Of a stretch of DNA of 64,000 nt, positions 1,151 through 35,506 are shown one piece after another. Under the pieces are notes generated by a model. That model saw nothing but the letters and a program-made list of their open reading frames with translations, did not search any database and was not told the origin of the DNA. The position numbers and the translations under genes were made by a program. Each line of letters opens with the position of its first letter. Position 1 is the first letter of the stretch. The stretch is from an uncultured Candidatus Saccharibacteria bacterium (GTDB taxonomy: Bacteria > Patescibacteriota > Minisyncoccia > Phycocordibacterales > WO2-35-19): the NCBI GenBank assembly GCA_964589445.1, contig CAZPQX010000003.1, forward strand, positions 42,133 to 106,132, given 5' to 3'.

Positions 1151-1909
1151 ATGAAAGAGCCAGAAATAATTCTAGATCCTAAAGAACTCGATATTTTAAA
1201 ATTGGTTCTTGAGGATATTAAAAAATCTTTGACCTGCGAATTTGCTATTGGTGGATCAATGGCACAAAGAGCTTTATTGCCAGAATTTGGGCAATCAAGT
1301 GAAGCAAACAAAAAGAGTGACATTGATATCGTGCTCTTGGCTGGGTCAAGAGAAAGGTGCCCAGTTTTGCATTCCATAAAAAATTATTTTTATGTTTTGA
1401 GCATTACAGAATCTTTTGATAGTTATTATTTCGGACTTGTACATAAAAAGACAAAAAAGTGGGTTGATTTATTTCCAGTCGCATATAGTCGTTCCTACTA
1501 TAATGTACGAGTAGAAGGAAAAGCTTATAAAGCAGAAACTATCTCAAGCCAAGTATTATATCTTGCTCACGATTTGCTGCGGAGAATAAAAGGCCATAAA
1601 GATGTGCGACAAAAATGGTTCAATAAAATAAAATTTCTATTCTCACAGATTAAAGATGTTACTGATTTTGAAAATGAATTTTCTTCTCATAAACAATATT
1701 TACTTGAAGATCTTCCCAGGGGGGTAAAAATACCTGAAAACGCCCATGAATTTATACAAACGGTTATTGAATGTGTCGCTCCTTTCGTTAAACTTTCTAC
1801 AAAGAGAAATTGGTTCCTCCTATTTAAAAATTATTATAAAGATTCTGTTGTTACCTCAAACGGCATCAAGGTAGATTCTAGGTTTGCTCTACTTCGAACC
1901 TTATTTTGA
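1151..1909 (+). CDS. Pol-beta-superfamily nucleotidyltransferase (minimal NTase fold; possibly aminoglycoside/lincosamide nucleotidyltransferase-like)
   Basis: FAIGGSMAQRALL...SDIDIVLL gives the GS...DxD NTase motif; 252 aa is similar in size to KNTase-type ANT enzymes. Resistance function not established. Confidence 0.5.
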   Translation: MKEPEIILDPKELDILKLVLEDIKKSLTCEFAIGGSMAQRALLPEFGQSSEANKKSDIDIVLLAGSRERCPVLHSIKNYFYVLSITESFDSYYFGLVHKKTKKWVDLFPVAYSRSYYNVRVEGKAYKAETISSQVLYLAHDLLRRIKGHKDVRQKWFNKIKFLFSQIKDVTDFENEFSSHKQYLLEDLPRGVKIPENAHEFIQTVIECVAPFVKLSTKRNWFLLFKNYYKDSVVTSNGIKVDSRFALLRTLF

Positions 1910-17375: not shown

Positions 17376-19889
17376 ATGAAAAATAAAGAAGCAAAAGCAC
17401 GAATAAAAATAAACAAACTCCTTGAACAAGCAGGTTGGCGTTTTTTTGATAATGAAAAGGGACAAGCAAATATTTCGCTTGAGCCGAATGTAAAACTTAC
17501 CCAAAAGGACATTGACGCTTTTGGTGAGGATTTTGAATCTACAAAAAACGGATTTATTGATTTTTTATTGCTTGATGAAAAAGGTTTTCCGTTTGTTATT
17601 TTAGAAGCCAAAAAAGAATATAAAAACCCGCTCGACGGCAAAGAACAGGCGAGAAAATACGCTCATACCGAAAACGCCCGCTTTGTTATTCTTTCAAACG
17701 GCAATCTTCACTATTTTTGGGATTTAGAACGAGGTGATCCTGAAATCATCACCGAATTTCCGACACAAGAATCTTTGAAACACAGACAGGATTTCAAACC
17801 AGATAATCAGCGTTTGGCAGACGAAGAAGTCAGAGACGATTATATTGCACTTACGCAAAACCCGAATTTCAAAGATGATCCTCGCTACAAACAAGAAGAA
17901 ACGCGAGAGCAATATCTTTGGGAAGAAAATTTGCGAATTTTGCGACCTTATCAGCTTAAAGCAATACACGCTTTGCAAAAATCCGCCGAAGCTGGAAATG
18001 ATCGTTTCCTTTTTGAAATGGCAACGGGGACAGGAAAAACGCTTATTTCCGCCGCCGTCATCAAACTGTTTTTGCGAACAGGCAACGCCAAAAGAATTTT
18101 GTTTTTAGTGGATCGCTTAGAATTGGAAGATCAAGCGCATAAAAACTTTGTCCGCTATTTGAGCAATGATTTTTCATCAGTTATTTACAAACAAAACCGC
18201 GATGACTGGAAAAAAGCGGAGGTTGTCATTTCAACAGTTCAAAGTCTTTCGGCGCAAGATAAATACAAAAAACTTTTTTCGCCGACTGATTTTGATTTGA
18301 TTATCGCCGATGAATCACACCGCGCAATCGGCGGAAACTCGCGCGCAGTTTTTGAATACTTTATCGGCTACAAATTGGGCTTAACTGCAACACCGAAAGA
18401 CTATTTGAAAAATGTTGATCCACAGAAACTTTCACAAAAAGACCCGCGCGCTTGGGAAAGACGACAACTCTTGGACACTTACACGACATTCGGCTGTAAA
18501 AATGGCGAGCCAACTTTCCGATTTAGCTTGCTTGACGGCGTAAAAGAAGGATTTTTGATCAATCCTATTGTTTCAGACGCGCGAACCGACATCACCACCG
18601 AACTACTCTCGGAAAAGGGCTACGCGGTTATGGTTGAAGATGAAGACGGCACAGGAAGCGAAGAAACATTTTTCCAAAAAGATTTTGAAAAGAAATTCTT
18701 TTCCGAAAAAACAAATCGCGTCTTTTGCCAAACACTCATTGAAAATTCTCTCAAAGACCCAATAAGCGGAGAAATCGGCAAGACCATTGTGTTTTGCGTG
18801 AGCCAAAAGCACGCTTCCAAAATTACCCAAACGCTCAACCAAATGGCGAGCCAACTTTGGCCCGACAAATACAATTCTGATTTTGCGTTGCAAATAACTT
18901 CAAACATTGCCGATAGCCAGCAATTCACAATCAACTTCGCAAACAATAACCTAAACGGACACACCAAGTTTTTGGAAAACTATAAATCCAGCAAAACGAG
19001 GGTTTGCGTAACTGTTGGAATGATGACCACGGGCTACGACTGCCAAGACATTTTGAATCTTGCGCTTATGCGCCCGATTTTCTCGCCGACTGATTTTATT
19101 CAGATCAAAGGACGAGGAACAAGAAAATTCACCTTTGAATATATGGACGAATACGGCGAAAAGCACAAAAAGCCAAAAGACCATTTCAAATTTTTTGATT
19201 TCTTCGCTAACTGCGAATATTTTGAAGAAAAATTTGATTATGACGAGGTTTTGCAACTGCCTATCAAGCAAAAAGGAACAGGCGGAGAAGGACCAGTCGG
19301 TGTTGACATTGATGAATTTGAAACTTTCAATCCCGATAAAGTAAAAACTCTTACGGAAACACCTGTCGGAATAGAAGGGATGAAAGTTGATCGCAAACTA
19401 TTTGAAAAAGCTCGCGAAGAATTGCAAAAAGACACTGAGGTAAAATCTGCCGTGGAAAACGAGCAATGGGACAAAGCGGTGCAAATTATGCGCGACAAAT
19501 ACGAAGACAAACCGCAATTATTCTTGAATCTTGAAAAAATCCGCAAGAGCGAAAACCTTGATCGCCGTATTTCTTGGCGCGAATTCTTGGAACGAGCCTT
19601 CGGCTTGATTGACGTTTTCAAATCCAAAGACGAAAAACTGGAAGAAGAATGCGAAAAGTTTATTTCAATTTACAAGCCCGAAAGCAAATATGTTCCGCAT
19701 ATCAAAAACTATCTGAAAGCGTATGTTACGGATGAAAAATTCCGCGACATTATCAACAACAAACATTTCGCCGACTTGAATGTTTATGCGGGGTTTACAA
19801 TGGCGGAATTTAAGGAATTAAACGGATGGCGGGAAACTGTGCCTGAATATGTGAAAGATTATGTTCCCGTTAATCAGTTTATGAGGTAG
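17376..19889 (+). CDS. hsdR: Type I restriction enzyme R subunit (HSDR_N PD-(D/E)xK nuclease plus SF2 helicase)
   Basis: N-terminal FIDFLLLDEKGFPFVILEAKKE (D..EAK nuclease); helicase motif I MATGTGKT; motif II DESHR. Confidence 0.75.
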   Translation: MKNKEAKARIKINKLLEQAGWRFFDNEKGQANISLEPNVKLTQKDIDAFGEDFESTKNGFIDFLLLDEKGFPFVILEAKKEYKNPLDGKEQARKYAHTENARFVILSNGNLHYFWDLERGDPEIITEFPTQESLKHRQDFKPDNQRLADEEVRDDYIALTQNPNFKDDPRYKQEETREQYLWEENLRILRPYQLKAIHALQKSAEAGNDRFLFEMATGTGKTLISAAVIKLFLRTGNAKRILFLVDRLELEDQAHKNFVRYLSNDFSSVIYKQNRDDWKKAEVVISTVQSLSAQDKYKKLFSPTDFDLIIADESHRAIGGNSRAVFEYFIGYKLGLTATPKDYLKNVDPQKLSQKDPRAWERRQLLDTYTTFGCKNGEPTFRFSLLDGVKEGFLINPIVSDARTDITTELLSEKGYAVMVEDEDGTGSEETFFQKDFEKKFFSEKTNRVFCQTLIENSLKDPISGEIGKTIVFCVSQKHASKITQTLNQMASQLWPDKYNSDFALQITSNIADSQQFTINFANNNLNGHTKFLENYKSSKTRVCVTVGMMTTGYDCQDILNLALMRPIFSPTDFIQIKGRGTRKFTFEYMDEYGEKHKKPKDHFKFFDFFANCEYFEEKFDYDEVLQLPIKQKGTGGEGPVGVDIDEFETFNPDKVKTLTETPVGIEGMKVDRKLFEKAREELQKDTEVKSAVENEQWDKAVQIMRDKYEDKPQLFLNLEKIRKSENLDRRISWREFLERAFGLIDVFKSKDEKLEEECEKFISIYKPESKYVPHIKNYLKAYVTDEKFRDIINNKHFADLNVYAGFTMAEFKELNGWRETVPEYVKDYVPVNQFMR

Positions 19890-19900
19890 CCAAAAATATT

Positions 19901-21769
19901 ATGCTTGATCAGACTACAAAACGAAAACTAGACTCTGCCCGACAAATTCTTGTCGGCAAAGTGCCAGACCCCAAGGCGCAAGTTGAGCAAATCACGACTG
20001 CGCTTGTCTATAAGTTTATGGACGATATGGACAAGGAATCGGAAGAGCTTGGCGGAGAGGCGAAATTTTTTGCCAACAGTTTTTCACAGTATTCTTGGAC
20101 GAAACTTATGAACAACAAACTTTCTGGGCAAGAACGCCTTGATTTATATGTTCAGGCAATTACGAATATGTCTAAAAACCCGCATATTCCGCAATTGTTT
20201 CGTGATATTTTCAAAGGCGCGTTTTTGCCATACAACGATCCTCGCACACTTTCGCTATTTCTCAAAGAGATCAATGAATTTAATTACGAACATAGCGAAA
20301 ACTTGGGCAATGCTTTTGAATATTTGCTTTCTATTCTCGGAAGCCAAGGCGACGCGGGACAATTCCGCACACCTCGCCACATTATTGATTTTATAGTTGA
20401 AGTGGTTGATCCAAAAAAGAACGAAACAATCCTTGATCCCGCTTGCGGAACGGCTGGATTTTTGATTTCTGCATACAAACATATTTTGAGGCAGAATAAA
20501 GAAAAATCTCTCACGCCAGACGAAAAATTGAAATTGATGAATAATCTTGCGGGCTATGATATTTCGCCCGATATGGTGAAATTGGCGCTCGTAAATTTGT
20601 ATTTACATGGCTTTCCAGATCCAAAAATTCACGAATATGATTCACTCACAAGCGAAAAGCGGTGGGGAGAAACATTTGATGTAATAATGGCAAACCCGCC
20701 CTTTACAACACCAAAAGGCGGAGTTAGTCCACATTCAAGGTTTAATGTAAGCGTGAAAAGAACTGAGGTTTTATTTGTTGATTATATTGTCAATCATTTA
20801 AATATTTCTGGACGCTCTGGTATTGTTGTTCCCGCTGGAGTGGTTTTTAAAGATGATTCTGGTTATGTCAAAATAAGAAAAAATCTTATTGATAGCAATC
20901 TACTCTGGGCTGTAATTTCGTTGCCTGGCGGAGTTTTTAACCCATATTCCAATGCTGAAACAAGCATTTTGTTTTTAGATAAAAAAGTTGCCCAAAAAAC
21001 AAGTAAAATTTTGTTTGTAAACATCAACAATGATGGTTATAGCCTTGGGAACACAAGAAATCCCATTAAAGATAATGATCTGCCTTCGGCTTTGGAATTA
21101 TTGAAAAATTATGCTAATGGGAAAAATATAAACAGTAGCCAAGCGTTATTTGTTGAAAAAGAGGATATAAAAAATAATTATTACATTCTTGTCGGCGATA
21201 GATATAAAAAGAATGGTGATAAAAAAACAAAAAATCATCTGCCGTTGAGTAAGCTTTTATTGCGGAATAAAACGCCAATAAATATTGAGAGCAATATTGT
21301 GTATAAAAGAGCAACCATAAAACTTTATGGGAAAGGTCTTTCAATAAGAGATGAGGAGATAGGGTCAAAGATAAATACAAAAAAACAATTTCTTATCAAA
21401 AAAGGTCAGCTACTACTTTCAAAAATTGATGCCCGAAATGGAGCGTTTGGAATAGTCCCTCAAGAATTAGACGGGGCAATTATTACTGGAAATTTTTGGG
21501 CTTTTGATATAAATGAAAATTTTGTAAACAAAGATTATTTGTCTTATCTGCTCTCTTCTAAAAAATTCTATTCAATTTGTAAAGATGCCAGCTCTGGGGT
21601 TACAAACAGAAAATACTTAAACGAAACTAAATTCTTGGCAATGGAAATTGAATTACCAAAAATTGAAGAGCAGAACAAATTGATAACGGAATTAAATGGT
21701 TACAAGAGTAAAATTGAGGAGTTGCAGAAAGAGCTTGATTCCAGAATAGCAAAAGAATGGGATGTATAA
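19901..21769 (+). CDS. hsdM: Type I RM fused methyltransferase-specificity protein (HsdM N6-adenine MTase plus a single HsdS-type target-recognition domain)
   Basis: GQFRTPRHI...DPACGTAGFL (SAM binding) and NPPF catalytic motif. The C-terminal ~190 aa (GAFGIVPQELDGAIITGNFWAF...) resemble an HsdS half-TRD. Confidence 0.7.
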   Translation: MLDQTTKRKLDSARQILVGKVPDPKAQVEQITTALVYKFMDDMDKESEELGGEAKFFANSFSQYSWTKLMNNKLSGQERLDLYVQAITNMSKNPHIPQLFRDIFKGAFLPYNDPRTLSLFLKEINEFNYEHSENLGNAFEYLLSILGSQGDAGQFRTPRHIIDFIVEVVDPKKNETILDPACGTAGFLISAYKHILRQNKEKSLTPDEKLKLMNNLAGYDISPDMVKLALVNLYLHGFPDPKIHEYDSLTSEKRWGETFDVIMANPPFTTPKGGVSPHSRFNVSVKRTEVLFVDYIVNHLNISGRSGIVVPAGVVFKDDSGYVKIRKNLIDSNLLWAVISLPGGVFNPYSNAETSILFLDKKVAQKTSKILFVNINNDGYSLGNTRNPIKDNDLPSALELLKNYANGKNINSSQALFVEKEDIKNNYYILVGDRYKKNGDKKTKNHLPLSKLLLRNKTPINIESNIVYKRATIKLYGKGLSIRDEEIGSKINTKKQFLIKKGQLLLSKIDARNGAFGIVPQELDGAIITGNFWAFDINENFVNKDYLSYLLSSKKFYSICKDASSGVTNRKYLNETKFLAMEIELPKIEEQNKLITELNGYKSKIEELQKELDSRIAKEWDV

Positions 21770-24120
21770 TTTATCGAAACATGAAGCTGAAAAGTATCAA
21801 AAAAATCAAAGGTTATAAATCGTTCCAAGATTTTGATTGGCAACCTTTTTTGAATAATGAAACTTTTCATGATGAAGTAAATATTCTTTATGGCGAAAAT
21901 GGAAGTGGTAAAAGCTCAATTGCCAACCTTTTGAAAAGTGTTTCAGAAAATAAAGATTTTGGTAAGTACATACCAGCCGAAGCGTGTTTGGTATTTGATG
22001 ACGGCGAGAAAAAATATCCAGTAAATAACGATTGGGACAATAAAATTTCAAAAGGTTCCATTTTGTTTTTTGATCGCGAATTTATTGATAAAAATGTTCA
22101 TTTGGGACACAGACGAGACACAACGCAAAACGGACAAGAACAAGAATCGGGCAAGATGATTATCGAGTTTGATAGCGACGCTATCAATTTGCGTGGTGTA
22201 AGAGATACGGCTAAAAAAGCGAAAGACGAACAAGACCAGAAAATTAAAGATTTCAATTCTGCGAATAAGGATTCATTGGCTTTTGCTTTGACTGACAATG
22301 AACAGCCGTTTTTCAAAAACTACAAAGATAAAAGTGAAGAAGAAATCAAAACAGCAAAACAAACATTGGGAAAGGAGAAAAAAGAAGCCGAAAAGAGCCT
22401 TGAAACAGATCAGGGATTGCAAAAGAAAGTCGCCAGTATCCAAAGAGACATAAAAAGCTTGCCGACAGAAGAAGTTGAAATTTCCTTTTCTGATGAGAAA
22501 ACATATCAGGCAATTTTTGATTTTGACCTAAAAGAGCAGGCAAAAATAGAAGCCGAGCAGACTTTGATTGATAAAGTTAAATCGCATAAATCATTCTTTG
22601 AAACTGGTTTTGAAATTAGAAAGACACACCAAAATCAGTGTCCTTTTTGCCAATCTGAAAATGAAGAAGCAGGAATCAAAAACATCGTTGATCTATACGA
22701 GCAAATTTATGACACGACATATAAAACACAAGTGCATCAATTTGAAAAAGATAAACAAGTCCTGCTTGATGAAATTTCACAAATTACACAAGCCGTTTCC
22801 GATTTTGATTTGAACAGTATTTTTCTTGAACTTAAAAAATTAGACCAAAATTACAAAATACCAAATATCTACTCTGTTGATGACGAAAAAACATACAAAA
22901 AACCAGCGGTGAAAGAGATAAAAGAGTTGAGTGGTAAAATAACGAAACTTGCGAAGCCAAGCAAAGAGGACATCAAAGAGCTTTATGCAAAAGTAAAAAC
23001 TGAATTTGAGGCGATTGAAGCATTTTTCAAGTCAATTAGTGATTTTGTAGATCAAAAGAACAAGCTCATTTCTAAATTCAAATCCGACAACACCGATGAA
23101 AAACTTCAAGCACGAATTGTTTCAAGCGGTAAAAGAATTGCTGAAATTGAAAAAGAGTTGGTTTTTATAAATGGAAACAAGATAAAGGAACAACAAAAGA
23201 AAGAGCAAAAAGAAAAGGAACAAAAAGCTTTGCAAGATGTTTTTGCTACGCTAAAAACAGAATACGATACAGCCTTAAAAGAATACGAAGATCATTGTTC
23301 GACAAAGGCTTTTTCAAACCTTTTGTCTAAAATTCAAGAATATTTCAAAAATTTCAATTTTAGTTTTAGGCTTGAACCAAAAACAGCACCAACAGGAAAC
23401 AAAACCGAATTTCCGTTTGCGTTCAAGGTTTTGGATTTTGAGGGAAACGAGCGAGATTTCAAAGAGGGACTTTCCGAGGGGGAAATTCAGGTTTTGTCCC
23501 TTTGTTTTTTCTTTGCGTTTCTTGATATACAAAAAGATAAAAAACAAAAGGTGCTTGTTTTTGACGACCCGATCACGAGTTTGGATAATAGCAATTTGAG
23601 TTGTCTCGTTGATTTAATCGCCGAAGAGCAAAAAAACTTTTCACAAATTTTTGTTTTTTCTCACCACAGAACCTTTTTCAAATTTTTAAGAAAGCGATTT
23701 GATAAAAATTGCCATGAATACAATCTAATCCGAAACAAAAAAGAATTTGGCGGAAGTTTTATTTGCAAAAGTAAATCTGATAAATTTTTGGCTAAGCTGA
23801 AAAATTTTGAAACTGACTTGGCGAAAATTCCGCCAGCAAGTCTTGATGTTGAATTGAAAGTCGTTGAATATGGGCAATATTTGCGATATGAGGTTGAAAG
23901 GCATATCAAAAATAATTTATTGCACTGGAACGCAAATGATTTCCCAACGGCGATTGATGGTGTAAAATGTAATAAAGAGATAGATGACGGCGATTTGGAC
24001 AAAATCAAGCAAATATATTCGTTTTGCAACTGGACGACTTCGCATGTTGATGTAGGAGATGATCATGGACTTGGACAACTGAAAACAAAAATCGCCGATT
24101 TTGTAGCAATTGTTAAATAG
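21757..24120 (+). CDS. RloC-like Rad50/SbcC-type ABC ATPase with a coiled-coil zinc hook; candidate anticodon nuclease
   Basis: Walker A GENGSGKSS; long Lys/Glu coiled coil containing a CPFC (CxxC) hook; signature LSEGEIQVLSL; Walker B/D-loop VLVFDDPITSLD; H-loop FSHH. The C-terminal ~150-aa domain has R-x3-E...H candidates (LRYEVERH). Positioned right after hsdR/hsdMS as in restriction-linked RloC. Start may be ATG at 21781. Confidence 0.55.
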   Translation: MGCIIYRNMKLKSIKKIKGYKSFQDFDWQPFLNNETFHDEVNILYGENGSGKSSIANLLKSVSENKDFGKYIPAEACLVFDDGEKKYPVNNDWDNKISKGSILFFDREFIDKNVHLGHRRDTTQNGQEQESGKMIIEFDSDAINLRGVRDTAKKAKDEQDQKIKDFNSANKDSLAFALTDNEQPFFKNYKDKSEEEIKTAKQTLGKEKKEAEKSLETDQGLQKKVASIQRDIKSLPTEEVEISFSDEKTYQAIFDFDLKEQAKIEAEQTLIDKVKSHKSFFETGFEIRKTHQNQCPFCQSENEEAGIKNIVDLYEQIYDTTYKTQVHQFEKDKQVLLDEISQITQAVSDFDLNSIFLELKKLDQNYKIPNIYSVDDEKTYKKPAVKEIKELSGKITKLAKPSKEDIKELYAKVKTEFEAIEAFFKSISDFVDQKNKLISKFKSDNTDEKLQARIVSSGKRIAEIEKELVFINGNKIKEQQKKEQKEKEQKALQDVFATLKTEYDTALKEYEDHCSTKAFSNLLSKIQEYFKNFNFSFRLEPKTAPTGNKTEFPFAFKVLDFEGNERDFKEGLSEGEIQVLSLCFFFAFLDIQKDKKQKVLVFDDPITSLDNSNLSCLVDLIAEEQKNFSQIFVFSHHRTFFKFLRKRFDKNCHEYNLIRNKKEFGGSFICKSKSDKFLAKLKNFETDLAKIPPASLDVELKVVEYGQYLRYEVERHIKNNLLHWNANDFPTAIDGVKCNKEIDDGDLDKIKQIYSFCNWTTSHVDVGDDHGLGQLKTKIADFVAIVK

Positions 24121-28229: not shown

Positions 28230-30563
28230 ATGAGGACTAAGGTATTTTTTTTAATAAAATTTGTCGCGATATTTGTTGTATTTGGTTTTTTCAAAACTGC
28301 GAGCGCTGACACTCTTTCACTCACTGCAGGTAGCAATGCGACTACCACTCCAAACGTGGCTACCGCCATCACAGGTTTCCAAATAGTTGGGCCTACGAGT
28401 CAGACTACACCAGTCAAGATAAGGGCGACGAGTGGTACCTTAAATCTTTCTACTATTTCTGGTGTGACTATGAGCGGCAATGGTACCGGCACGGTCAACC
28501 TTTCTGGTACGGTTGAGAAATTGAACCAAGCCCTCTCTACTCTCACTTATACCAGAGGCTCTACTGGTACAGACACTCTAGAGGTATCTCTCGTCGAATC
28601 AGGAGAAGTATTTTTTGAAGACAATGGTCACTTGTACAAATTTATAACTTCAACACTGAATTGGAACGCTGCCAAGACCGCAGCAGAAGCTCAGACTGCA
28701 TACGGTGTGAGTGGGTACCTGGCTACAGTTTCTACTACCACTGAAAATGCTTTTATTTCTGCCCGCCTTGTGGCTGATGGTTGGTTTGGTGCGAGCGACT
28801 CAGGGAGTGAGGGTGTGTGGAAATGGGTGACAGGACCTGAAAATGGCACTACATTTTGGAATGGTGCATCTGGTGGCAGTGTGGTGTCTGGGCAGTATGC
28901 AAACTGGAATTCAGCCGAACCTAATGATAGTGGAGGCAACGAAGACTGTGCACAATACTACTCTGCAAGCGGAAAGTGGAATGACTTGCCTTGTACTGGG
29001 TTCACTCTATCTGGATACGTCGTAGAGTTTGGTGCTCCTGGTAATTTGCCGACGGTGGTCGCTCAAAATATTTCTATCGTCACTGCGGATGTGCCTACTA
29101 TCACATCTTTTTATCCAGCCAATGCTTCTACTACGGTGGCTACTACAAGCAACTTGGTGATAGGGTTTAGCAAAAGTGTCACCAATCAAACCGGAAATAT
29201 TTTGATTAAAAAAGTATCGGATGATTCTGTGGCGGAAACAATAGATGCTTCTGGAGTTTTGATTTCTGGCAGTGGCACCAACTCTATCACCATAAACCCA
29301 AGTTCAAATTTGGAAGAGGGCACTCAATATTATGTGGTCGTGCCTGGTACGGCATTTAAAGATAGCTCAAACAATTTCTTTGCTGGGTTTTCTGCGAGTT
29401 CGACCTGGGCCTTCACTACAGGAGACACTACATCCCCGGTAATTACCAATATAGCTACTTCTGGCGTGGCTACGACGAGCGCGGCTATCTCTTGGGACAC
29501 GAGCGAAGCTGCTTCTACAAAAGTCGTGTACTCCACTGGTAGCTCTTTTGCTTCTACTACGAGCGAGACTGACACTAGTCCGCGTCTCACGAGTCACACT
29601 AAAACAATTTCAAACCTGACTGCTTGCACCACTTACAATTTCAAAGTTGTATCAAGGGATGCATTTGCAAACGCCGCTACTTCTTCATCTTATCTCTTTA
29701 CCACACTCGGCTGTCCTTCTTACTCTTTGCCTATAGCTGCGACTACTTCCTCTGTCACCGTGAGTGGGGCCGCTACTTCTACACTTACAGAAAACGGCCG
29801 CGGGATGCAAGTTGAGACGCCAGCAAACTTCACAGCCACTTCTTCTACTGTGGTGATCCAGATAAGGAGCATGGAGGCTGACCCTGTGCTCGAAAGTTTG
29901 AGTGTGCCAGCGGGTCTCACGAAGGCGTCTCAGGTAGTTTTTGATGTGAAAGCGCTTGTCGATGGCTCTGTCGAGCTAGACTCTTTTGACCATCCTGTCA
30001 CTATGACATACACCTATACTGATGAAGATGTAATAGGTCTCGATGAGAGCACTCTTTGGATGTATCACTATCACGATAGTGTGTGGGATCCTCTCGATGA
30101 CTGCACGGTAGACGCCGGGGCAAATACTATCACTTGCGATACACCCAACTTTTCTATTTTTGGTATTTTTGGCAGTCCGGTAAGTGCCGCTTCGACAAAT
30201 AATACAGGTGGAGCTTCTGTCAGGAGTAGGGTGGCGCACTTTGCTGCCATGGGGGACACAGCTTCGGCTGAGCAATTGAAAAAAGATTGGCATTGGTTAT
30301 TTGGCGTAAGCGAGGCTGCTCCTCTCGTCTCTACTTCGACCTCATACAATTTCACTCGTGATTTATATATAAGTTTGAGTGGCGAAGACGTGCGTGCTCT
30401 ACAAAATCTACTCATATCAAAAGGCTTCGCCATACCGGCTGGGGCTACTGGGTATTTCGGGTTGCAAACCAAATCTGCGCTTTCTTTGTATCAGTCACAA
30501 AATGGCATTTTGCCTTCTCTTGGCTACTTCGGTCCAAAAACACGCGCCTTTATCGGGAAATAA
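28230..30563 (+). CDS. Large cell-surface protein: C-type lectin-like domain plus Ig-like (SbsA-type) plus fibronectin-III-like plus C-terminal peptidoglycan-binding domain
   Basis: CTLD: WNAAKTAAEAQTAYGVSGYLATV...WKWVTGPE...WNSAEPNDSGGNEDCAQYYSASGKWNDLPC. C-terminal PG_binding_1: LSGEDVRALQNLLISKGF...GYFGLQTKSALSLYQ. Confidence 0.65.
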   Translation: MRTKVFFLIKFVAIFVVFGFFKTASADTLSLTAGSNATTTPNVATAITGFQIVGPTSQTTPVKIRATSGTLNLSTISGVTMSGNGTGTVNLSGTVEKLNQALSTLTYTRGSTGTDTLEVSLVESGEVFFEDNGHLYKFITSTLNWNAAKTAAEAQTAYGVSGYLATVSTTTENAFISARLVADGWFGASDSGSEGVWKWVTGPENGTTFWNGASGGSVVSGQYANWNSAEPNDSGGNEDCAQYYSASGKWNDLPCTGFTLSGYVVEFGAPGNLPTVVAQNISIVTADVPTITSFYPANASTTVATTSNLVIGFSKSVTNQTGNILIKKVSDDSVAETIDASGVLISGSGTNSITINPSSNLEEGTQYYVVVPGTAFKDSSNNFFAGFSASSTWAFTTGDTTSPVITNIATSGVATTSAAISWDTSEAASTKVVYSTGSSFASTTSETDTSPRLTSHTKTISNLTACTTYNFKVVSRDAFANAATSSSYLFTTLGCPSYSLPIAATTSSVTVSGAATSTLTENGRGMQVETPANFTATSSTVVIQIRSMEADPVLESLSVPAGLTKASQVVFDVKALVDGSVELDSFDHPVTMTYTYTDEDVIGLDESTLWMYHYHDSVWDPLDDCTVDAGANTITCDTPNFSIFGIFGSPVSAASTNNTGGASVRSRVAHFAAMGDTASAEQLKKDWHWLFGVSEAAPLVSTSTSYNFTRDLYISLSGEDVRALQNLLISKGFAIPAGATGYFGLQTKSALSLYQSQNGILPSLGYFGPKTRAFIGK

Positions 30564-30616: not shown

Positions 30617-31261
30617 TTGGTGTTTAAAAATAAAAACATGAAAAATAATTTACAAGCTGGGTTTTTGCCTTTTATCGTGATCGCTGTCGTGGCTGTGCTT
30701 GCTGTGGGTGGTGGAGTGTATTATGCAACTAGGGGTGACGAAGCAGGTACAGAAAGTGAGATAGAAACAGAAGCAAAAGTTGAGACTCATGGTGAGGTAG
30801 AAATAAAAGGTGAGTCTAGCAAATCAAGTTTGCGTTCACTACTCACTATCGGCAAAGATGTGGTTTGTACATTTGAAAGCTCTGCCAGAAATACTGAATC
30901 AAGCGGCACAGTTTATATATCTTCGACAGGACAGATGCATGGCAATTTTAATTCACAAAATCAAATCGGAAGCATCGAATCACACATGGTGGTCAAGGCA
31001 GACGGTATGGCTTATGTTTGGTCAGGAAGTCAGGGAACCAAGATGAACTTTTCTAAGATAGATGCAGCAGCTAGCTCTGAGACAGATACTTCAGTAAATA
31101 TGGATGCGGAAGTTGAATATAAATGTAGTGATTGGAAGAGAGACAACTCCAAATTTGAAGTACCAACAAACGTCACTTTCATCGATATTGATGCCATGAT
31201 GAAAGGCACCTTGCCAGGCAATATAGATATACAAGGAGTGATGAAGGGTAGTGTGCGTTAG
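30617..31261 (+). CDS. Secreted/membrane-anchored hypothetical protein
   Basis: TM at FLPFIVIAVVAVLAVGGGVYY; start may be ATG at 30638. Confidence 0.45.
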   Translation: MVFKNKNMKNNLQAGFLPFIVIAVVAVLAVGGGVYYATRGDEAGTESEIETEAKVETHGEVEIKGESSKSSLRSLLTIGKDVVCTFESSARNTESSGTVYISSTGQMHGNFNSQNQIGSIESHMVVKADGMAYVWSGSQGTKMNFSKIDAAASSETDTSVNMDAEVEYKCSDWKRDNSKFEVPTNVTFIDIDAMMKGTLPGNIDIQGVMKGSVR

Positions 31262-31464
31262 TCTTTGTATTTGTATTCGAGGAGGTCTCCTGGACCACAA
31301 TCTAGTGTTTTGCATATCGCCTCGAGAGTCGAGAAGCGGATGGCTTTTGCTTTGCCCGTTTTTAGGATTGAAAGATTGGCAAGTGTGATGCCCACCTTCT
31401 CGCTGAGCTCAGTAAGACTCATTTTCCTTTTTGCTAACATTACATCCAAGTTTACTAGTATCAT
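31258..31464 (-). CDS. Cro/CI (XRE)-type HTH regulator, YozG/YvaO-like
   Basis: MILVNLDVMLAKRKMSLTELSEKVGITLANLSILKTGKAKAIRFSTLEAICKTLDCGPGDLLEY. Confidence 0.75.
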   Translation of the reverse strand: MILVNLDVMLAKRKMSLTELSEKVGITLANLSILKTGKAKAIRFSTLEAICKTLDCGPGDLLEYKYKD

Positions 31465-31475
31465 TTGATTTAATG

Positions 31476-31958
31476 TTAGACTGTTAGATCATTCTCGGAC
31501 TTCATATGGATAGCGCTTTCGACAAGCTTTTGAAGTACCGCAGCGAAGACAGCGACGATAAGAGGTGAGCATGCTGCGAGGAACCCTACGATAATGAGGC
31601 CTGGAGCGTCGTCCCACTGTGCTACCAAAAACACAACAGGCATGCCGAGCATGCAGAGCCCGCTCATGACGGTGGCAGCATATTTTATCTTCCTAAGAGC
31701 TTTGATACTTAAGTCAGAGAAGGCAATATTTTTATCTATATAATTTAAAAGTTTGAATGATTGGTAAATACAGAAGAAGAATGGTATCGCTATAAGATAG
31801 AGTCCAAACAAGATCGCTTCTTGTAGTGGGGCGAGGGGAGGGAACTCGAGAGCCGCACCCTTTGTTATGGGTGATAGAGCAAAAATACAAATCGCTAGTG
31901 CTATTAGAGTGCCAATACCTAAGACTATCCTTAGAAACCAAGTTGATCCTTTTTTCAT
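31476..31958 (-). CDS. DUF2975-like membrane protein (conserved partner of the YozG-type HTH)
   Basis: 4-TM protein immediately upstream of, and in the same operon as, the HTH. Confidence 0.55.
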   Translation of the reverse strand: MKKGSTWFLRIVLGIGTLIALAICIFALSPITKGAALEFPPLAPLQEAILFGLYLIAIPFFFCIYQSFKLLNYIDKNIAFSDLSIKALRKIKYAATVMSGLCMLGMPVVFLVAQWDDAPGLIIVGFLAACSPLIVAVFAAVLQKLVESAIHMKSENDLTV

Positions 31959-32102
31959 AAATTATTAGTTACTTTTTAATTTCTATTAAGTGGTGTATTT
32001 ATTTTATATTATTATTTATCGAATTACAATAAATATATACCGATAGTTGATAAATAATTAGTATTTTTTTTGGCTAAATAGGTATAATAATATTTAAAAA
32101 AT

Positions 32103-32816
32103 ATGAATGATATATTAATTGCACTCATGGCTGCTCTTACTACTCTCAGTAGTATTTTAACAACTTATGATCCATCACTTCAAAATTTACAAAATAGAGG
32201 AGTTAGTGTTTTAAAAACTAATCCTTCGGGGGAAATAATAGAGGAGATAATAATCCCTAGGAGGCGAGGGTCTATGCCGAGATATCAGGGTGGTGTGAGT
32301 CTCATCACTCCAACTATAGTGTTTGAAGATATAACTAAATTTATAACTGAAGGCCCTATCACTCTTTCTCCTTCGTCAAATAGTGCTGGTGTTTTTAGCT
32401 TTCTTAGTAGTAATACTGATAAGGTTACAATAAGTGGTAATACGGCTAATTTTGTTTCTATAAGTGCAGGGTCTTCTGTTATCACTGCAAATCAGAGTGC
32501 CGCGGGTGACTACTCCGAAGGCTCGGCTGCTATGACTATCACACTCTTGCACACATATTGTATAGCAGAGCCGTGTCTAAATGGGGGTGTCTGTAATCCT
32601 GTGATAGATGGAGATCAAAACTTTACATGTACTTGTGCGGAAGGGTTTGAAGGTCCTACTTGTGCTTTGTATGATGATGTTTGTACACCCCCAGCCCCTG
32701 GGTCGTGCAGGAATGCTGGGATTTGCGTGGCAGATGAAGATGGAGGGCATTGTGAATGTACTGGATGTTGGATGGGGGACTATTGTCAGACTGTAAATAC
32801 AGAGTGTGAAGCTTAA
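32103..32816 (+). CDS. Secreted protein with two EGF-like cysteine-rich domains
   Basis: CIAEPCLNGGVCNPVIDGDQNFTCTCAEGFEGPTC is a canonical 6-Cys EGF pattern; a second copy reads CTPPAPGSCRNAGICVADEDGGHCECTGCWMGDYC. Confidence 0.6.
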   Translation: MNDILIALMAALTTLSSILTTYDPSLQNLQNRGVSVLKTNPSGEIIEEIIIPRRRGSMPRYQGGVSLITPTIVFEDITKFITEGPITLSPSSNSAGVFSFLSSNTDKVTISGNTANFVSISAGSSVITANQSAAGDYSEGSAAMTITLLHTYCIAEPCLNGGVCNPVIDGDQNFTCTCAEGFEGPTCALYDDVCTPPAPGSCRNAGICVADEDGGHCECTGCWMGDYCQTVNTECEA

Positions 32817-32857
32817 TTATAGTACTATTGTAATTTCTAATTTTTCTAATTTTAAAA

Positions 32858-32895
32858 GCTCACCAACTCAAAAGAGTTTGGTGAGCTTTTAAAGC
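32858..32895. terminator. Bidirectional terminator
   Basis: aaaagctcaccaactcaaaagagtttggtgagctttt. Confidence 0.6.
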
Positions 32896-32911
32896 TATTA
32901 ATATATGCAAC

Positions 32912-33451
32912 TTATACAGACGGTTGGTATATGTTTATGTCTTTAGCACCGTGGTCTGAGAGTATCTCTGATATACGAATATCGTCTTCTGAGTGGACAG
33001 CTAGTAATATATTTCCAGCCATGACACTGTCGTTGTATTCTTGTGTGCGAGGTTTGTCTACACCCCAAGCACCAAGCGCACCTATGAGACCTCCAGCCGC
33101 TCCTCCAGTCACAGCTCCAGCTGCTGCGCCGCCCGCTGCACCAGTGATCCCTAATGCTGCCATGAGAGGTCCTGCTGCAAATATGGGTCCCACTATGGGC
33201 ACGGCTCCCGCAAATGCCGCTATGCCTCCAATAGCTCCCAACGCCCCACCTATGGCGGCACCTTTTTTGACGCCTTCAGCTGGAGTGTCAGAACTTATTT
33301 CGCTCGCATTTACTTCCATTTGCTCACTATCTCTATTTCGGTAAACATAAGAAATATCTTCCAGGTCTATTTTTAATTTGCGATGCAGTTCGTTGATTGC
33401 TTCTTCTGCATCCTTCCTAGAAGAAAACGTGGCCAAGGTCATCTTTTTCAT
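32912..33451 (-). CDS. Glycine-zipper membrane protein (DUF1269/general-stress-like)
   Basis: GAAIGGALGAIGGIAAFAGA...GAAGGAAAGAVTGGAAGGLIGALGA glycine-zipper TM segments. Confidence 0.5.
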   Translation of the reverse strand: MKKMTLATFSSRKDAEEAINELHRKLKIDLEDISYVYRNRDSEQMEVNASEISSDTPAEGVKKGAAIGGALGAIGGIAAFAGAVPIVGPIFAAGPLMAALGITGAAGGAAAGAVTGGAAGGLIGALGAWGVDKPRTQEYNDSVMAGNILLAVHSEDDIRISEILSDHGAKDINIYQPSV

Positions 33452-34164: not shown

Positions 34165-34872
34165 ATGCAAAGCGAAAATAAATTGTCTCTTCCGATAGCT
34201 ATAGCTTTTGCCGGTATATTGATAGCAGGCTCAATAATGTATGGCAAAGTTGGGACTCCCACCAACAAAGCTGCACAAGTGGCAGAAGTTGCAGGGCAGG
34301 AATCTCTAGATAGTATAAACCCAATTTCAGCAGATGATCATATAAGAGGTAGTAGGGACGCAGATGTTTTTATTGTTGAATATTCAGATACAGAGTGTCC
34401 TTTCTGTAAGAGACTCCATGACACATTGAAGCAAGTGATGGCAGAATACCAGGCGGGCGGAAAGGTAGCTTGGGTCTACAGGCACTTTCCTTTAGAGCAG
34501 CTGCATTCAAAAGCTAAAAATGAAGCTTTGGCTCTAGAGTGCGCAGCAGAGCTCGGTGGAAATGATAAGTTCTGGCAATACACAGATAGGATTTATGAGA
34601 TAACTCCTGCAAACGATGGTCTTGACCCTCTCGAACTTCCTAAAATAGCTCAGTACGTTGGTTTGGATGTCGCAAAGTTTAATGAATGTTTGTCTAGTCA
34701 AAGACACATGGCTAAGGTGGACGCCGACCTTCAAAATGCTATCGCTACTGGAGGAGCGGGTACACCATGGAGCATAATCGTAGCTAAAGACGGCACCAAA
34801 TATCCTCTTTCTGGAGCACAGCCATATGAAGCTATAAAGCAGATGATAGAGTCTGCACTTTCAAAAAACTAG
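34165..34872 (+). CDS. DsbA-family thiol:disulfide oxidoreductase (CPFC active site)
   Basis: YSDTECPFCKRLH sits in a thioredoxin fold; N-terminal TM. Confidence 0.7.
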   Translation: MQSENKLSLPIAIAFAGILIAGSIMYGKVGTPTNKAAQVAEVAGQESLDSINPISADDHIRGSRDADVFIVEYSDTECPFCKRLHDTLKQVMAEYQAGGKVAWVYRHFPLEQLHSKAKNEALALECAAELGGNDKFWQYTDRIYEITPANDGLDPLELPKIAQYVGLDVAKFNECLSSQRHMAKVDADLQNAIATGGAGTPWSIIVAKDGTKYPLSGAQPYEAIKQMIESALSKN

Positions 34873-34873
34873 T

Positions 34874-35506
34874 ATGAACAAAAGTTTTTTAGGGTTAGTT
34901 TTGATCGTCGTCTTGGCAGTGGTTTCCTTATTTGTTTTTGCCCCTGAAGTCAAATACAAATTTGAGAATAATGCCGTTCACCCTCTAGACAATGTTAAGG
35001 GTAACAAAGATGCCAAAGTGATCTTGATTGAATACAGTGACTTTGAATGTCCTGCTTGTAGGACTTACTATCCGATACTGAGACAACTCTTTACCGAATT
35101 TGGTGATAGGGCAACTTTTGTTTACAGACACTTTCCTCTGACTAGTATCCACCCAAATGCTGAGTTTGCCGCTAGGGCAGCAGAAGCAGCAGGTAAGCAA
35201 GACAAGTTTTGGGAAATGCACGACCTACTTTTCCAAAAACAAGCAGAGTGGTCAAACATCGCTGATATAGTGCCTGTATTCAAAAACTATGCTGCTTTAG
35301 TGGGTATTGACGCAGATAAATTTGAAAGTGATTTTAATTCTAGAGAAGTAAAAGATTTTGTAAGTTCTCAAAAAGCACATGCAAATAGCTCTGGCTTCCC
35401 AGGTACCCCAACTTTTGTTTTGAATGGGGAAGTTATAGATAATCCTTCTTCACTCGAACAATTCAGGTCTATTATTTTGGAAAAAATAAAAGAAACTCAA
35501 AACTAG
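34874..35506 (+). CDS. DsbA-family thiol:disulfide oxidoreductase paralog (CPAC active site)
   Basis: YSDFECPACRTYYP; tandem with the previous gene. Confidence 0.7.
   Translation: MNKSFLGLVLIVVLAVVSLFVFAPEVKYKFENNAVHPLDNVKGNKDAKVILIEYSDFECPACRTYYPILRQLFTEFGDRATFVYRHFPLTSIHPNAEFAARAAEAAGKQDKFWEMHDLLFQKQAEWSNIADIVPVFKNYAALVGIDADKFESDFNSREVKDFVSSQKAHANSSGFPGTPTFVLNGEVIDNPSSLEQFRSIILEKIKETQN

What the first reader, a model, noticed from the sequence alone, without database searches (positions are those of the whole stretch)
32103..32816. Bacterial secreted protein with canonical EGF-like domains
Two six-cysteine modules match the eukaryotic EGF spacing (C..PC.NGG.C....D....TC.C..G..G..C). EGF-like domains are rare in bacteria and usually mark host- or partner-adhesion proteins. 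Together with the nearby C-type-lectin/Ig/FN3 surface protein, this suggests a cell-contact-dependent (episymbiotic or host-associated) lifestyle, or gene capture from a eukaryote.
Basis: partly seen in the sequence, partly recalled or inferred. Interest (0 to 1): 0.55.

Follow-up and report, generated by a model that had tools for sequence, protein, structure and literature searches.

The report
CPR surface protein with EGF modules
A small, probably exported protein of a Candidate Phyla Radiation bacterium carries one bacterial Ig-like domain and then two genuine Notch-type EGF modules, and it belongs to an unnamed surface-protein family found in several lineages of these tiny bacteria; this is a modestly interesting domain annotation, not a new kind of system.

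Summary
ORF 32103-32816 (+, 237 aa) ends in two tandem EGF modules. Pfam EGF scores 30.5 bits against a cutoff of 21.5. The best solved-structure sequence matches are human Notch1 EGF repeats (E 8.5e-13). An AlphaFold model built on a family alignment (pLDDT 91) matches Notch EGFs by Foldseek.

Two corrections to the finding:
- The second module has eight cysteines, not six. The two extra ones co-occur across the family.

The gene is not an orphan. A full HMMER scan found about 20 other 50%-identity clusters with the same layout: signal peptide, sometimes an SLH or peptidoglycan-binding domain, an Arg-Arg-polyGly linker, 1-4 Big_2 domains, and a C-terminal EGF pair. All four named members are CPR (Peregrinibacteria, Peribacteria, Doudnabacteria). 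The window itself is Zambryskibacteria-like (GroEL 85-87% identical).

The most likely role is a Sec-exported, disulfide-bonded envelope protein that presents the EGF pair as a binding tip. Two DsbA-like genes lie 1.3 kb downstream. Adhesion is inferred, not shown.

Recent capture from a eukaryote is not supported: composition is uniform across the gene and the nearest EGF relatives are CPR proteins. Ancient transfer cannot be resolved. Interest is moderate to low.

The parts
32103..32816 (+). Complete gene: 237-aa Big_2 + EGF + EGF protein, including the stop codon
   Evidence: ORF list and sequence. An identical protein was called on Logan contigs from two sequencing runs. Homologues at 35-47% identity have the same architecture.
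32103..32165 (+). N-terminal hydrophobic segment (aa 1-21, MNDILIALMAALTTLSSILTT): a putative atypical signal peptide or signal anchor
   Evidence: The highest 15-aa Kyte-Doolittle window scores 2.2, comparable to the signal peptides of homologues (2.1-2.7). It has no Lys/Arg and one Asp in the first 8 residues. This is the only confident element (a helix, aa 2-19) in the single-sequence AF2 model. Export is inferred from homologues with canonical signal peptides.
32259..32270 (+). RRRG (aa 53-56): a degenerate copy of the family's Arg-Arg-polyGly motif, which precedes the first Ig domain
   Evidence: An RR(R)G3-7 motif lies 20-30 aa upstream of the first Big_2 in 10 of 32 family sequences, and in only 2 of 172 Big_2-only proteins. 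Its function is unknown.
32304..32546 (+). Big_2-type bacterial Ig-like domain (aa 68-148)
   Evidence: The family HMM scores 102 bits, E=7.5e-32. Pfam Big_2 does not hit the query itself, but it hits the equivalent domain in homologues, for example P0036 at 2.5e-15 and P0101 at 3.2e-11. The AF2 model shows a beta-sandwich at pLDDT 94-98. Foldseek matches phage Big_2-type Ig domains: Douge gp8 at rmsd 3.2 and the lambda gpV C-terminal domain.
32559..32663 (+). EGF module 1 (C153-C187), a canonical six-cysteine hEGF type
   Evidence: Pfam EGF best stretch covers aa 156-186. It aligns to Notch1 EGFs. Cysteine spacing is 4,5,11,1,8. All six cysteines are invariant or nearly invariant in the family.
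32682..32807 (+). EGF module 2 with C-terminal tail (C194-C235): six canonical cysteines plus C222 and C235
   Evidence: Second Pfam EGF stretch. It aligns to the second EGF of Notch1 pairs, with C235 falling on the first Cys of a would-be third repeat. The loop Cys and tail Cys are both present in 18 of 21 aligned homologues and both absent in 3 of 21. A fourth disulfide is inferred from this, not shown.
32851..32893 (.). Strong hairpin between the convergent genes: a likely bidirectional terminator
   Evidence: RNA fold of 32810-32915: -29.3 kcal/mol, z=-5.55, 0 of 200 shuffles fold as well. The simple terminator scan did not call it.
34165..35506 (+). Two adjacent DsbA-like thioredoxin-fold genes (CPFC and CPAC motifs): candidate oxidants for the seven disulfides. 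The link to the EGF gene is inferred.
   Evidence: Pfam Thioredoxin_4 and DSBA at E=1.2e-20 / 1.3e-14 and 8.6e-29 / 2.7e-17. The CxxC motifs are visible in the translations. On the contig that carries homologue P0160, a second EGF protein (324 aa) lies beside a DsbB gene.

Best explanation
The gene encodes a small cell-envelope protein from an uncharacterised CPR family. Its layout is an N-terminal export or anchor segment, a short linker, one Big_2 Ig-like spacer domain, and a C-terminal pair of Notch-type EGF modules.

Shown:
- The domain identities.
- The existence of the family and its fixed architecture.
- That the named members are CPR.

Inferred:
- The protein leaves the cytoplasm through Sec, using its hydrophobic N-terminus.
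- Its 14 cysteines are oxidised outside the cell into seven disulfides: three per EGF plus a family-specific C222-C235 bond.
- DsbA-like enzymes such as the two encoded 1.3 kb downstream make those bonds.
- The rigid EGF pair is held away from the membrane on the Ig domain and acts as a protein- or glycan-binding tip.
- The tip binds either a partner cell, which would fit the episymbiosis widely inferred for CPR, or another envelope component.

Longer paralogues are tethered at their N-terminus by SLH or PG_binding_1 domains, so the EGF pair is the distal end of the molecule. This copy has no wall-binding domain. It would therefore be membrane-anchored by an uncleaved signal, or released.
For: EGF identity:
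- Pfam EGF is above its gathering score.
- Notch1 is the best PDB sequence hit at E=8.5e-13, with both modules in register.
- The AF2 model has pLDDT 91, and its Foldseek top hits are Notch, DLK1 and factor VII EGFs.

Ig domain:
- Supported by the family HMM, by Pfam Big_2 hits on homologues, and by Foldseek matches to phage Big_2 domains.

Family:
- 21 of the top 150 representatives combine Big_2 with a C-terminal EGF pair. The other representatives are either cysteine-free Big_2 giants or proteins with about 10% cysteine and many EGFs.

Surface location:
- Homologues have canonical signal peptides, a lipobox (P0181), and SLH or PG_binding_1 domains.
- Neighbouring genes in several loci are surface proteins: Lectin_C/fn3/PG_binding here, Laminin_G_3 in L085, Peptidase_S8/PKD and SLH in L089, and CAP in L090.

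Disulfide machinery:
- Two DsbA-like genes lie nearby.
- DsbB sits beside a second EGF protein (324 aa) on the contig that carries P0160.

Real gene:
- It is conserved at 35-47% identity across lineages whose loci differ in GC content (0.40-0.51).
- It has its own terminator hairpin.
Against: - No binding partner, expression data or localisation data exist.
- The query's N-terminus lacks the basic n-region of a classical signal peptide.
- The family's polyGly linker is degenerate in this copy, so it could be a decaying member.
- The DsbA genes are near but not adjacent, and they are not consistently linked in other loci.
- CPR partner cells, where known, are usually prokaryotes. An animal-type EGF has no obvious receptor there.
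Confidence: 0.6

Rival explanations
1. The protein is a purely structural envelope or S-layer-associated component. The Ig and EGF modules act as rigid, disulfide-stabilised spacers or lattice contacts within the cell's own envelope, with no role in recognising a partner cell.
For: - Several paralogues carry SLH or PG_binding_1 domains typical of wall-associated structural proteins. One is annotated as an S-layer homology domain-containing protein.
- EGF modules elsewhere often serve as rigid spacers (general knowledge).
- The family contains no recognisable enzymatic or toxin domain.
Against: - The EGF pair always occupies the distal C-terminal tip, not an internal spacer position.
- This copy has no wall-binding domain.
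- Neighbouring genes encode lectin or LamG-type binding proteins.
Confidence: 0.25
2. This copy is a decaying, non-exported remnant of the family. It is the shortest full-length form, with an atypical N-terminus and a degenerate linker, and it no longer functions.
For: - No basic residue in the n-region, and an Asp at position 3.
- The polyGly motif is reduced to RRRG.
- There is no wall anchor.
- GC3 (0.27-0.29) is lower than in core genes (0.37-0.47).
Against: - The reading frame is intact.
- All 12 canonical cysteines and the conserved glycines are kept, together with both family-specific cysteines.
- The family HMMs score 92-102 bits.
- The hydrophobic core is as strong as in homologues.
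- An identical sequence was recovered from independent sequencing runs.
Confidence: 0.1
3. The gene reflects recent capture of a eukaryotic (animal or choanoflagellate) EGF-repeat fragment, which the bacterium uses to mimic Notch-type ligands of a eukaryotic host.
For: - The EGF pair is 42-45% identical to metazoan Notch or fibropellin EGF pairs.
- The final cysteine aligns with the first cysteine of a next repeat, as if cut out of a longer array.
- Older literature treated EGF repeats as eukaryote-only (PMC2770060).
Against: - GC3 is the same in both halves of the gene (0.27-0.29).
- The same Big_2-EGF-EGF fusion is conserved in about 20 diverged clusters across several CPR lineages.
- The closest EGF pairs are the CPR ones.
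- The tail cysteine is a conserved family feature paired with a loop cysteine, not a truncation scar.
- No close relative was found by a peptide-pattern scan of the GTDB species-representative genomes or by tblastn against the phage collection.
Confidence: 0.04
4. The cysteine pattern is a chance or bacteria-specific cysteine-rich fold that only resembles EGF.
For: EGF modules are short and dominated by cysteines and glycines, so weak matches can arise by composition.
Against: - The Pfam score is above the curated cutoff.
- E=8.5e-13 to Notch1 with non-cysteine positions conserved, namely PC.NGG.C and the G..G..C turn.
- High-confidence AF2 model with EGF Foldseek matches at probability 1.00.
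Confidence: 0.01

Closest known systems
hEGF-type EGF repeats of Notch, Delta/Jagged, DLK1, fibropellin and coagulation factors VII/IX/X (Pfam PF00008 / PF12661)
   Same: - Six-cysteine framework with the same spacing.
- The PC-x-NGG-x-C and G-x2-G-x2-C signatures.
- A tandem arrangement with a 6-residue linker.
- Best sequence and fold matches.
   Different: - Only two modules, placed at the C-terminus of a bacterial protein and fused to a Big_2 domain.
- The second module carries two extra cysteines.
- No calcium-binding consensus: EGF_CA did not hit, and the sequence before C194 is YDDV rather than D-x-D/N-E.
- No transmembrane receptor or ligand context.
Unnamed CPR family 'signal - (SLH / PG_binding_1) - RR-polyGly - Big_2 x1-4 - EGF - EGF'. 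Examples: UPA22881.1 (Ca. Peribacteria, annotated as an S-layer homology domain protein), MDR3642732.1 (Ca. Doudnabacteria, annotated as a peptidoglycan-binding protein), PIR54344.1 (Ca. Peregrinibacteria, hypothetical)
   Same: - 35-47% identity over the Big_2 + EGF + EGF unit.
- Identical domain order.
- The same eight-cysteine terminal module.
- The RR(G) motif.
   Different: - The window protein is the minimal form, with one Big_2, no wall-binding domain and a degenerate polyGly stretch.
- Its N-terminus has no basic residues.
Big_2 (PF02368) Ig-like domains of bacterial adhesins (intimin / invasin type) and phage capsid or tail decoration proteins
   Same: - About 80 aa beta-sandwich.
- Giant cysteine-free Big_2 arrays are the strongest non-family sequence hits, with up to 57 repeats.
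- Foldseek matches to Douge gp8 and the lambda gpV C-terminal domain.
   Different: - Only a single copy is present.
- The query itself falls below Pfam Big_2 detection.
- It is followed by EGF modules, which those proteins lack.
EGF-repeat proteins of Sandaracinaceae (Myxococcota), annotated 'fibrinogen-like YCDxxxxGGGW domain-containing protein' (e.g. MEQ9651742.1)
   Same: - A bacterial protein with Notch-like EGF pairs.
- About 39% identity to the query's EGF pair.
   Different: - Multiple EGF repeats (7 pair-matches).
- No Big_2 domain.
- A fibrinogen-like domain is present.
- It comes from a large-genome, free-living phylum.
Laminin-type EGF (eight cysteines)
   Same: It has eight cysteines, so an EGF core with a fourth disulfide is plausible.
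   Different: - In the laminin type, the two extra cysteines both follow C6 (C7-C8 loop; recalled knowledge).
- Here one extra cysteine lies inside the C5-C6 loop (C-x-C-x2-C-x5-C-x6-C).
- No laminin-EGF Pfam hit was found.

Membership tests
EGF-like domain (Pfam PF00008, hEGF type) | Profile score at or above Pfam's gathering threshold | tested here: met
   30.5 bits against a cutoff of 21.5, E=4.4e-7, two stretches. Homologues score up to 42 bits. The narrower hEGF, EGF_2 and Teneurin-EGF models were below their cutoffs.
EGF-like domain (Pfam PF00008, hEGF type) | Six cysteines with C-x(4-7)-C-x(5)-C-x(8-12)-C-x-C-x(8)-C spacing and a conserved Gly turn before C6 | tested here: met
   Module 1 spacing is 4,5,11,1,8. 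Module 2 spacing is 7,5,8,1,(2+5). The cysteines and G125/G166 (alignment numbering) are invariant in 21 sequences.
EGF-like domain (Pfam PF00008, hEGF type) | EGF fold: two small beta-hairpins, with structural similarity to solved EGFs | tested here: met
   AF2 model with pLDDT 78-93 over the EGF half. The Foldseek top 17 hits are Notch and DLK1 EGFs at probability 1.00, E=1.5e-5 to 8e-4. TM-scores are low (about 0.22) because only half of the query aligns and the inter-module angles differ.
EGF-like domain (Pfam PF00008, hEGF type) | Disulfide connectivity C1-C3, C2-C4, C5-C6 | not testable with these tools
   Model coordinates were not exposed. This needs Cys-Cys distances from the model or a mass-spectrometry disulfide map.
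Calcium-binding EGF (EGF_CA, PF07645) | The D/N-x-D/N-E/Q consensus before C1, and a profile hit | tested here: not met
   No EGF_CA hit at E<=1. The residues before C194 are L-Y-D-D-V and before C153 are L-H-T-Y.
Big_2 bacterial Ig-like domain (PF02368) | Pfam profile score above the gathering threshold | tested here: inconclusive
   The query has no hit at E<=1. The homologous domain in family members does hit: P0036 at 56.6 bits, P0101 at 43.4 bits, and P0003/P0006 at 182-197 bits. The query aligns to those domains at 44-54% identity.
Big_2 bacterial Ig-like domain (PF02368) | Ig-like beta-sandwich similar to solved Big_2 domains | tested here: met
   The model has pLDDT 94-98 and seven strands. 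Foldseek matches Douge gp8 (rmsd 3.2 over about 90 columns) and the lambda gpV C-terminal Ig domain.
CPR Big_2-EGF-EGF surface-protein family (unnamed; defined here) | Last Big_2 immediately followed by an EGF pair at the extreme C-terminus | tested here: met
   The query's EGF pair ends 1 residue before the stop. The same holds in 21 of the top 150 representatives.
CPR Big_2-EGF-EGF surface-protein family (unnamed; defined here) | Eight-cysteine second module (loop Cys plus tail Cys) | tested here: met
   C222 and C235 are present. They co-occur in 18 of 21 sequences and are co-absent in 3 of 21.
CPR Big_2-EGF-EGF surface-protein family (unnamed; defined here) | Canonical N-terminal signal peptide and RR-polyGly linker | tested here: inconclusive
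   A hydrophobic core is present, but no basic n-region. Only RRRG is retained, against RRGGGG(G) in 10 of 32 members. No signal-peptide predictor was available.
Laminin-type EGF | Eight cysteines with both extra cysteines after C6, and a profile hit | tested here: not met
   The pattern is C-x-C-x2-C-x5-C-x6-C, with one extra Cys inside the C5-C6 loop. No Laminin_EGF Pfam hit. The laminin pattern is recalled knowledge.

The most novel reading that the evidence does not exclude
The Big_2-EGF-EGF proteins may be a CPR-wide partner-recognition device.
- The eight-cysteine EGF tip would be the ligand by which these ultrasmall bacteria dock onto their host cells.
- The conserved Arg-Arg-polyGly motif would be a processing site. 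For example, cleavage could expose an N-terminal oligoglycine that a sortase-type enzyme could ligate to the wall or to a pilus.
- A corollary is that Notch-type EGF pairs were exchanged between CPR bacteria and early eukaryotes. This would overturn the old view that EGF repeats are a eukaryotic invention.

None of this is excluded by the data, and none of it is shown.
Probability: 0.1. Interest if true: 0.75.

Novelty: new member of a known kind. Interest (0 to 1): 0.38.

Why it matters
- **Distribution of EGF.** EGF repeats were long described as eukaryote-only (PMC2770060). This work finds a conserved, multi-lineage family in CPR bacteria that ends in a Notch-like EGF pair. Myxobacterial examples exist as well. 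EGF is therefore an established, if uncommon, bacterial surface module.
- **Candidates for CPR biology.** Almost nothing is known about how CPR cells contact their partners. The family gives a short list of small, expressible, disulfide-stabilised candidates for binding and localisation experiments.
- **Annotation.** Family members are currently labelled 'hypothetical' or named only after their wall-anchor domain, and no NCBIfam model exists.
- **Limits.** The finding does not reveal a new mechanism.

Tried and rejected
- **Word-indexed protein search with the single sequence.** It found only the identical Logan protein. This gave a false impression that the gene is an orphan, which the full HMMER scan corrected.
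- **Genome-contig scan with the protein.** No relative found.
- **Single-sequence AlphaFold2.** Unusable, pLDDT 37. It was replaced by the run on the family alignment.
- **Degenerate DNA pattern across the Big_2/EGF junction in metagenome contigs.** 41 stretches matched, but only one true family member (L092) and one unrelated multi-EGF gene (L115).
- **tblastn against phages.** No match, so a phage origin for the Big_2-EGF unit was dropped.
- **NCBIfam.** No model.
- **Neighbour-joining tree of EGF pairs.** The family is nearly monophyletic in the point estimate, but bootstrap support is poor. No claim is made about the direction or timing of transfer.
- **Simple promoter and terminator scan.** It was uninformative in this AT-rich region.
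- **Literature.** No paper links EGF domains to CPR, Patescibacteria or Parcubacteria. The DUF2975 search gave only the YoaS-YozG operator note.
- **Calcium-binding EGF and laminin-type EGF.** Both were considered and rejected on sequence pattern.
Full report
**The observation**

The window holds an ORF at exactly 32103-32816 on the + strand. It starts with ATG and encodes 237 aa. An in-frame stop lies 15 nt upstream, so the only alternative start is Met9. That is the start used by an identical gene call on two Logan contigs.

All 14 cysteines lie in the last 85 residues. Their spacings are 4,5,11,1,8 for the first module, a 6-residue linker, then 7,5,8,1,2,5,6.

- Pfam EGF (PF00008) scores 30.5 bits against a gathering cutoff of 21.5 (E=4.4e-7), with two stretches. 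The narrower hEGF, EGF_2 and Teneurin-EGF models are below their cutoffs.
- phmmer against all PDB chains gives 51 hits. All but one fall on the EGF region (aa 147-237) and are eukaryotic EGF proteins; the exception is a weak GH18 hit on the Ig-like region.
- The best is human Notch1 EGF20-24 (E=8.5e-13). Both modules align in register, and non-cysteine signature positions are conserved, namely PC.NGG.C and G..G..C.

Two corrections apply. The second module has eight cysteines rather than six, and the first spacing is C-x4-C.

**The rest of the protein**

Residues 68-148 give no Pfam hit in the query. A full HMMER scan of 1.84 billion representatives showed that this stretch is a repeat unit in giant proteins, with up to 57 copies. 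In those proteins and in closer homologues, Pfam calls it Big_2, the bacterial Ig-like domain group 2, at E=1e-11 to 1e-59.

- Single-sequence AlphaFold2 failed, with pLDDT 37.
- With a 21-sequence family alignment (A1), the model of aa 60-237 reached pLDDT 91 and pTM 0.70. It shows a seven-strand sandwich followed by two small hairpin modules.
- Foldseek against the PDB matched the C-terminal half to Notch1/2, DLK1 and factor VII/IX/X EGFs, with E down to 1.5e-5 and probability 1.00.
- Foldseek matched the N-terminal half to Big_2-type Ig domains of mycobacteriophage Douge gp8 and lambda gpV.

The N-terminal 21 residues form a hydrophobic helix whose hydropathy is comparable to the signal peptides of homologues. 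This segment has no Lys or Arg, and it has an Asp at position 3.

**Not an orphan**

The word-indexed search found only the identical protein, and a scan of GTDB genomes with peptide patterns found nothing. The exhaustive HMMER scan gave a different picture: 3108 hits at E<=1e-3 and 125 at E<=1e-30. I classified the top 150 with HMMs built from the two halves of A1. They fall into three clean classes:

- giant Big_2 arrays that mostly have under 1% cysteine and no EGF;
- multi-EGF proteins with mostly 7-14% cysteine and no Big_2;
- 21 proteins of 205-715 aa that combine 1-4 Big_2 domains with an EGF pair at the extreme C-terminus.

The third class is the family of the window protein, at 35-47% identity over the whole Big_2+EGF+EGF unit.

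Complete members begin with canonical signal peptides, or a lipobox in P0181. Several then carry SLH or PG_binding_1 wall-binding domains. Many have an Arg-Arg-polyGly stretch 20-30 residues before the first Big_2. This motif occurs in 10 of 32 family sequences and in only 2 of 172 Big_2-only proteins. Four members have an additional internal EGF block.

In A1 the 12 canonical cysteines are invariant or nearly invariant. The loop cysteine (C222) and the tail cysteine (C235) are both present in 18 of 21 sequences and both absent in 3 of 21. I read this as a family-specific fourth disulfide in the terminal module.

**Organism and distribution**

The window encodes GroEL, RNase J, a class I aminoacyl-tRNA synthetase, a type I restriction-modification system and four tRNAs. 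Its GroEL is 85-87% identical to GroEL from Candidatus Zambryskibacteria MAGs. The host is therefore a Parcubacteria-group CPR bacterium.

Every family member that carries a source name is also CPR:

- Ca. Peregrinibacteria (PIR54344.1);
- Ca. Peribacteria (UPA22881.1, from a 1.24-Mb contig, annotated as an S-layer homology domain protein);
- Ca. Doudnabacteria (MDR3642732.1, annotated as a peptidoglycan-binding protein).

One member (P0181, L083) sits beside LptF/LptG and a transpeptidase, and its phylum is unknown. I therefore say only that all named members are CPR, not that the family is CPR-restricted.

The multi-EGF class includes echinoderm, mollusc and choanoflagellate proteins. It also includes a Sandaracinaceae (Myxococcota) cluster annotated 'fibrinogen-like YCDxxxxGGGW domain-containing protein'. 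EGF repeats therefore occur in other bacteria too.

**Genomic context**

In the window the EGF gene is monocistronic. A 144-bp AT-rich region separates it from a divergent DUF2975 / HTH_26 pair (31476-31958 and 31258-31464, minus strand). A strong hairpin at 32851-32893 (z=-5.55) lies between it and a convergent glycine-zipper membrane protein.

- Downstream, at 34165-35506, are two DsbA-like thioredoxin-fold genes with CPFC and CPAC motifs.
- In other loci the family gene sits among surface-protein genes: Laminin_G_3 in L085, Peptidase_S8/PKD and SLH in L089, CAP in L090, and type I RM in L092.
- On the contig that carries P0160, a second EGF protein (324 aa) lies beside a DsbB gene.
- The DUF2975 / HTH_26 pair recurs within 3 kb of the family gene in L085 and L089. 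Those organisms have different GC content (0.51 and 0.47, against 0.40 here). Identities are HTH 81-84%, DUF2975 45-50%, and EGF protein 41-47%.
- A 2026 preprint describes this pair as the widespread YoaS-YozG operon, with AT-rich inverted-repeat operators upstream. The window's intergenic region contains a perfect 10-bp inverted repeat.
- The relative orientation differs between loci, so co-regulation is only a possibility.

**How it most likely works**

Shown: the domain identities, the family and its fixed architecture, and the CPR origin of named members.

Inferred:
- The protein is exported through Sec.
- It is oxidised to seven disulfides by extracytoplasmic DsbA-like enzymes.
- It presents the rigid EGF pair as the distal tip of a short stalk.
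- The N-terminal placement of the wall anchors in longer paralogues fixes that polarity.

EGF modules in characterised proteins mediate protein-protein contacts, which is general knowledge. The neighbouring genes encode lectin and LamG binding domains, and CPR bacteria are widely inferred to live attached to other cells. I therefore favour a binding or adhesion role (confidence about 0.6). A purely structural envelope role is the main rival (about 0.25). A decaying, non-exported copy is a lesser rival (about 0.1), based on the atypical N-terminus and degenerate linker.

**Origin**

Recent capture from a eukaryote is not supported.

- GC3 is 0.27 in the Ig half and 0.29 in the EGF half. Both values are below core genes (0.37-0.47), but they match each other and other accessory genes in the window.
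- The fusion to Big_2 and the eight-cysteine tail are conserved across diverged CPR lineages.
- The closest EGF pairs are the CPR ones, at 45-48% identity and 85-90 bits. Metazoan-type pairs follow closely at 42-45% and 73-82 bits.
- A neighbour-joining tree places 23 of 24 family EGF pairs in one pure clade. Only about a quarter of bootstrap replicates recover a pure clade of 18 or more.
- No relative was found in the phage collection.

Ancient transfer in either direction remains open.

**Comparison with what is known, and novelty**

The modules are bona fide members of the EGF and Big_2 superfamilies. The EGF modules are not calcium-binding EGFs and not laminin-type EGFs.

The family has no NCBIfam model. 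I found no paper linking EGF domains to CPR, Patescibacteria or Parcubacteria. A 2009 review still listed EGF repeats as eukaryote-only. Even so, the precomputed database annotation already tags the protein with PF00008, and bacterial EGF proteins exist elsewhere.

I therefore rate the finding as a new member of a known kind. It belongs to an uncharacterised family with a distinctive but unsurprising architecture. Its interest is moderate to low (0.38).

Noticed in passing
window 31258-31958 (- strand) and intergenic 31959-32102; L085 13849-14560; L089 8479-9766: A YoaS/YozG-like pair (DUF2975 membrane protein plus HTH_26 Cro/C1 repressor) lies divergently next to the EGF gene. The pair recurs within 3 kb of the family member in two other genomes of different GC content. 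The shared AT-rich intergenic region holds a perfect 10-bp inverted repeat, ATTATTTATC / GATAAATAAT, at 32011-32020 and 32049-32058. This is a possible operator.
   Followed up: partly
window 32259-32270; family members P0036, P0048, P0084, P0104, P0130, P0133, P0147, P0160, P0279: A conserved Arg-Arg-(Gly)3-7 motif sits 20-30 residues before the first Big_2 domain. It is nearly absent from Big_2-only proteins (2 of 172). Its function is unknown. A processing site or a flexible linker are both possible.
   Followed up: partly
window 28230-30563 (+): A 777-aa surface protein combines a eukaryote-type C-type lectin domain (E=1.5e-11) with Big_5, fn3/purple-acid-phosphatase-N and a C-terminal PG_binding_1 domain. 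This is a second 'eukaryote-like' extracellular domain in the same neighbourhood.
   Followed up: partly
window 34165-35506 (+): Two tandem DsbA-like thioredoxin-fold genes carry CPFC and CPAC active sites and N-terminal hydrophobic anchors. No DsbB or VKOR partner turned up among the window ORFs I scanned.
   Followed up: partly
window 17376-24120 (+): A type I restriction-modification cluster (HsdR-like ResIII, N6_Mtase) is followed by a 787-aa AAA_13 / SMC_N ATPase, a defence-island-like block. Family loci L087 and L092 also sit beside restriction-modification methyltransferase genes (N6_Mtase/MmeI-type in L087, type I-like in L092).
   Followed up: no
window 32912-33451 (-): A convergent 179-aa protein has a long glycine-zipper hydrophobic segment. 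In the P0160 locus, a 53-aa Gly_zipper gene lies directly downstream of the EGF gene. This may be coincidence.
   Followed up: no
window 1151-1909, 5915-7009, 32103-32816, 49915-52860: These genes have markedly lower GC3 (0.25-0.30) than core genes such as GroEL (0.47) or the DEAD-box helicase (0.50). This suggests compositionally distinct accessory genes scattered through the window.
   Followed up: no
L115 4911-10127 (+), metagenome contig ODIC01000505.1: A long open frame with several EGF-pair matches and no Big_2 domain was picked up by the degenerate DNA pattern. It runs off the contig end, and its origin (eukaryotic or bacterial) was not determined.
   Followed up: no
L083 5855-6799 (P0181): A family member has a lipoprotein-type signal (LLGC lipobox). 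It sits between a GIY-YIG gene and transpeptidase and LptF/LptG genes. Its phylum is unknown, so the family may extend beyond CPR.
   Followed up: no
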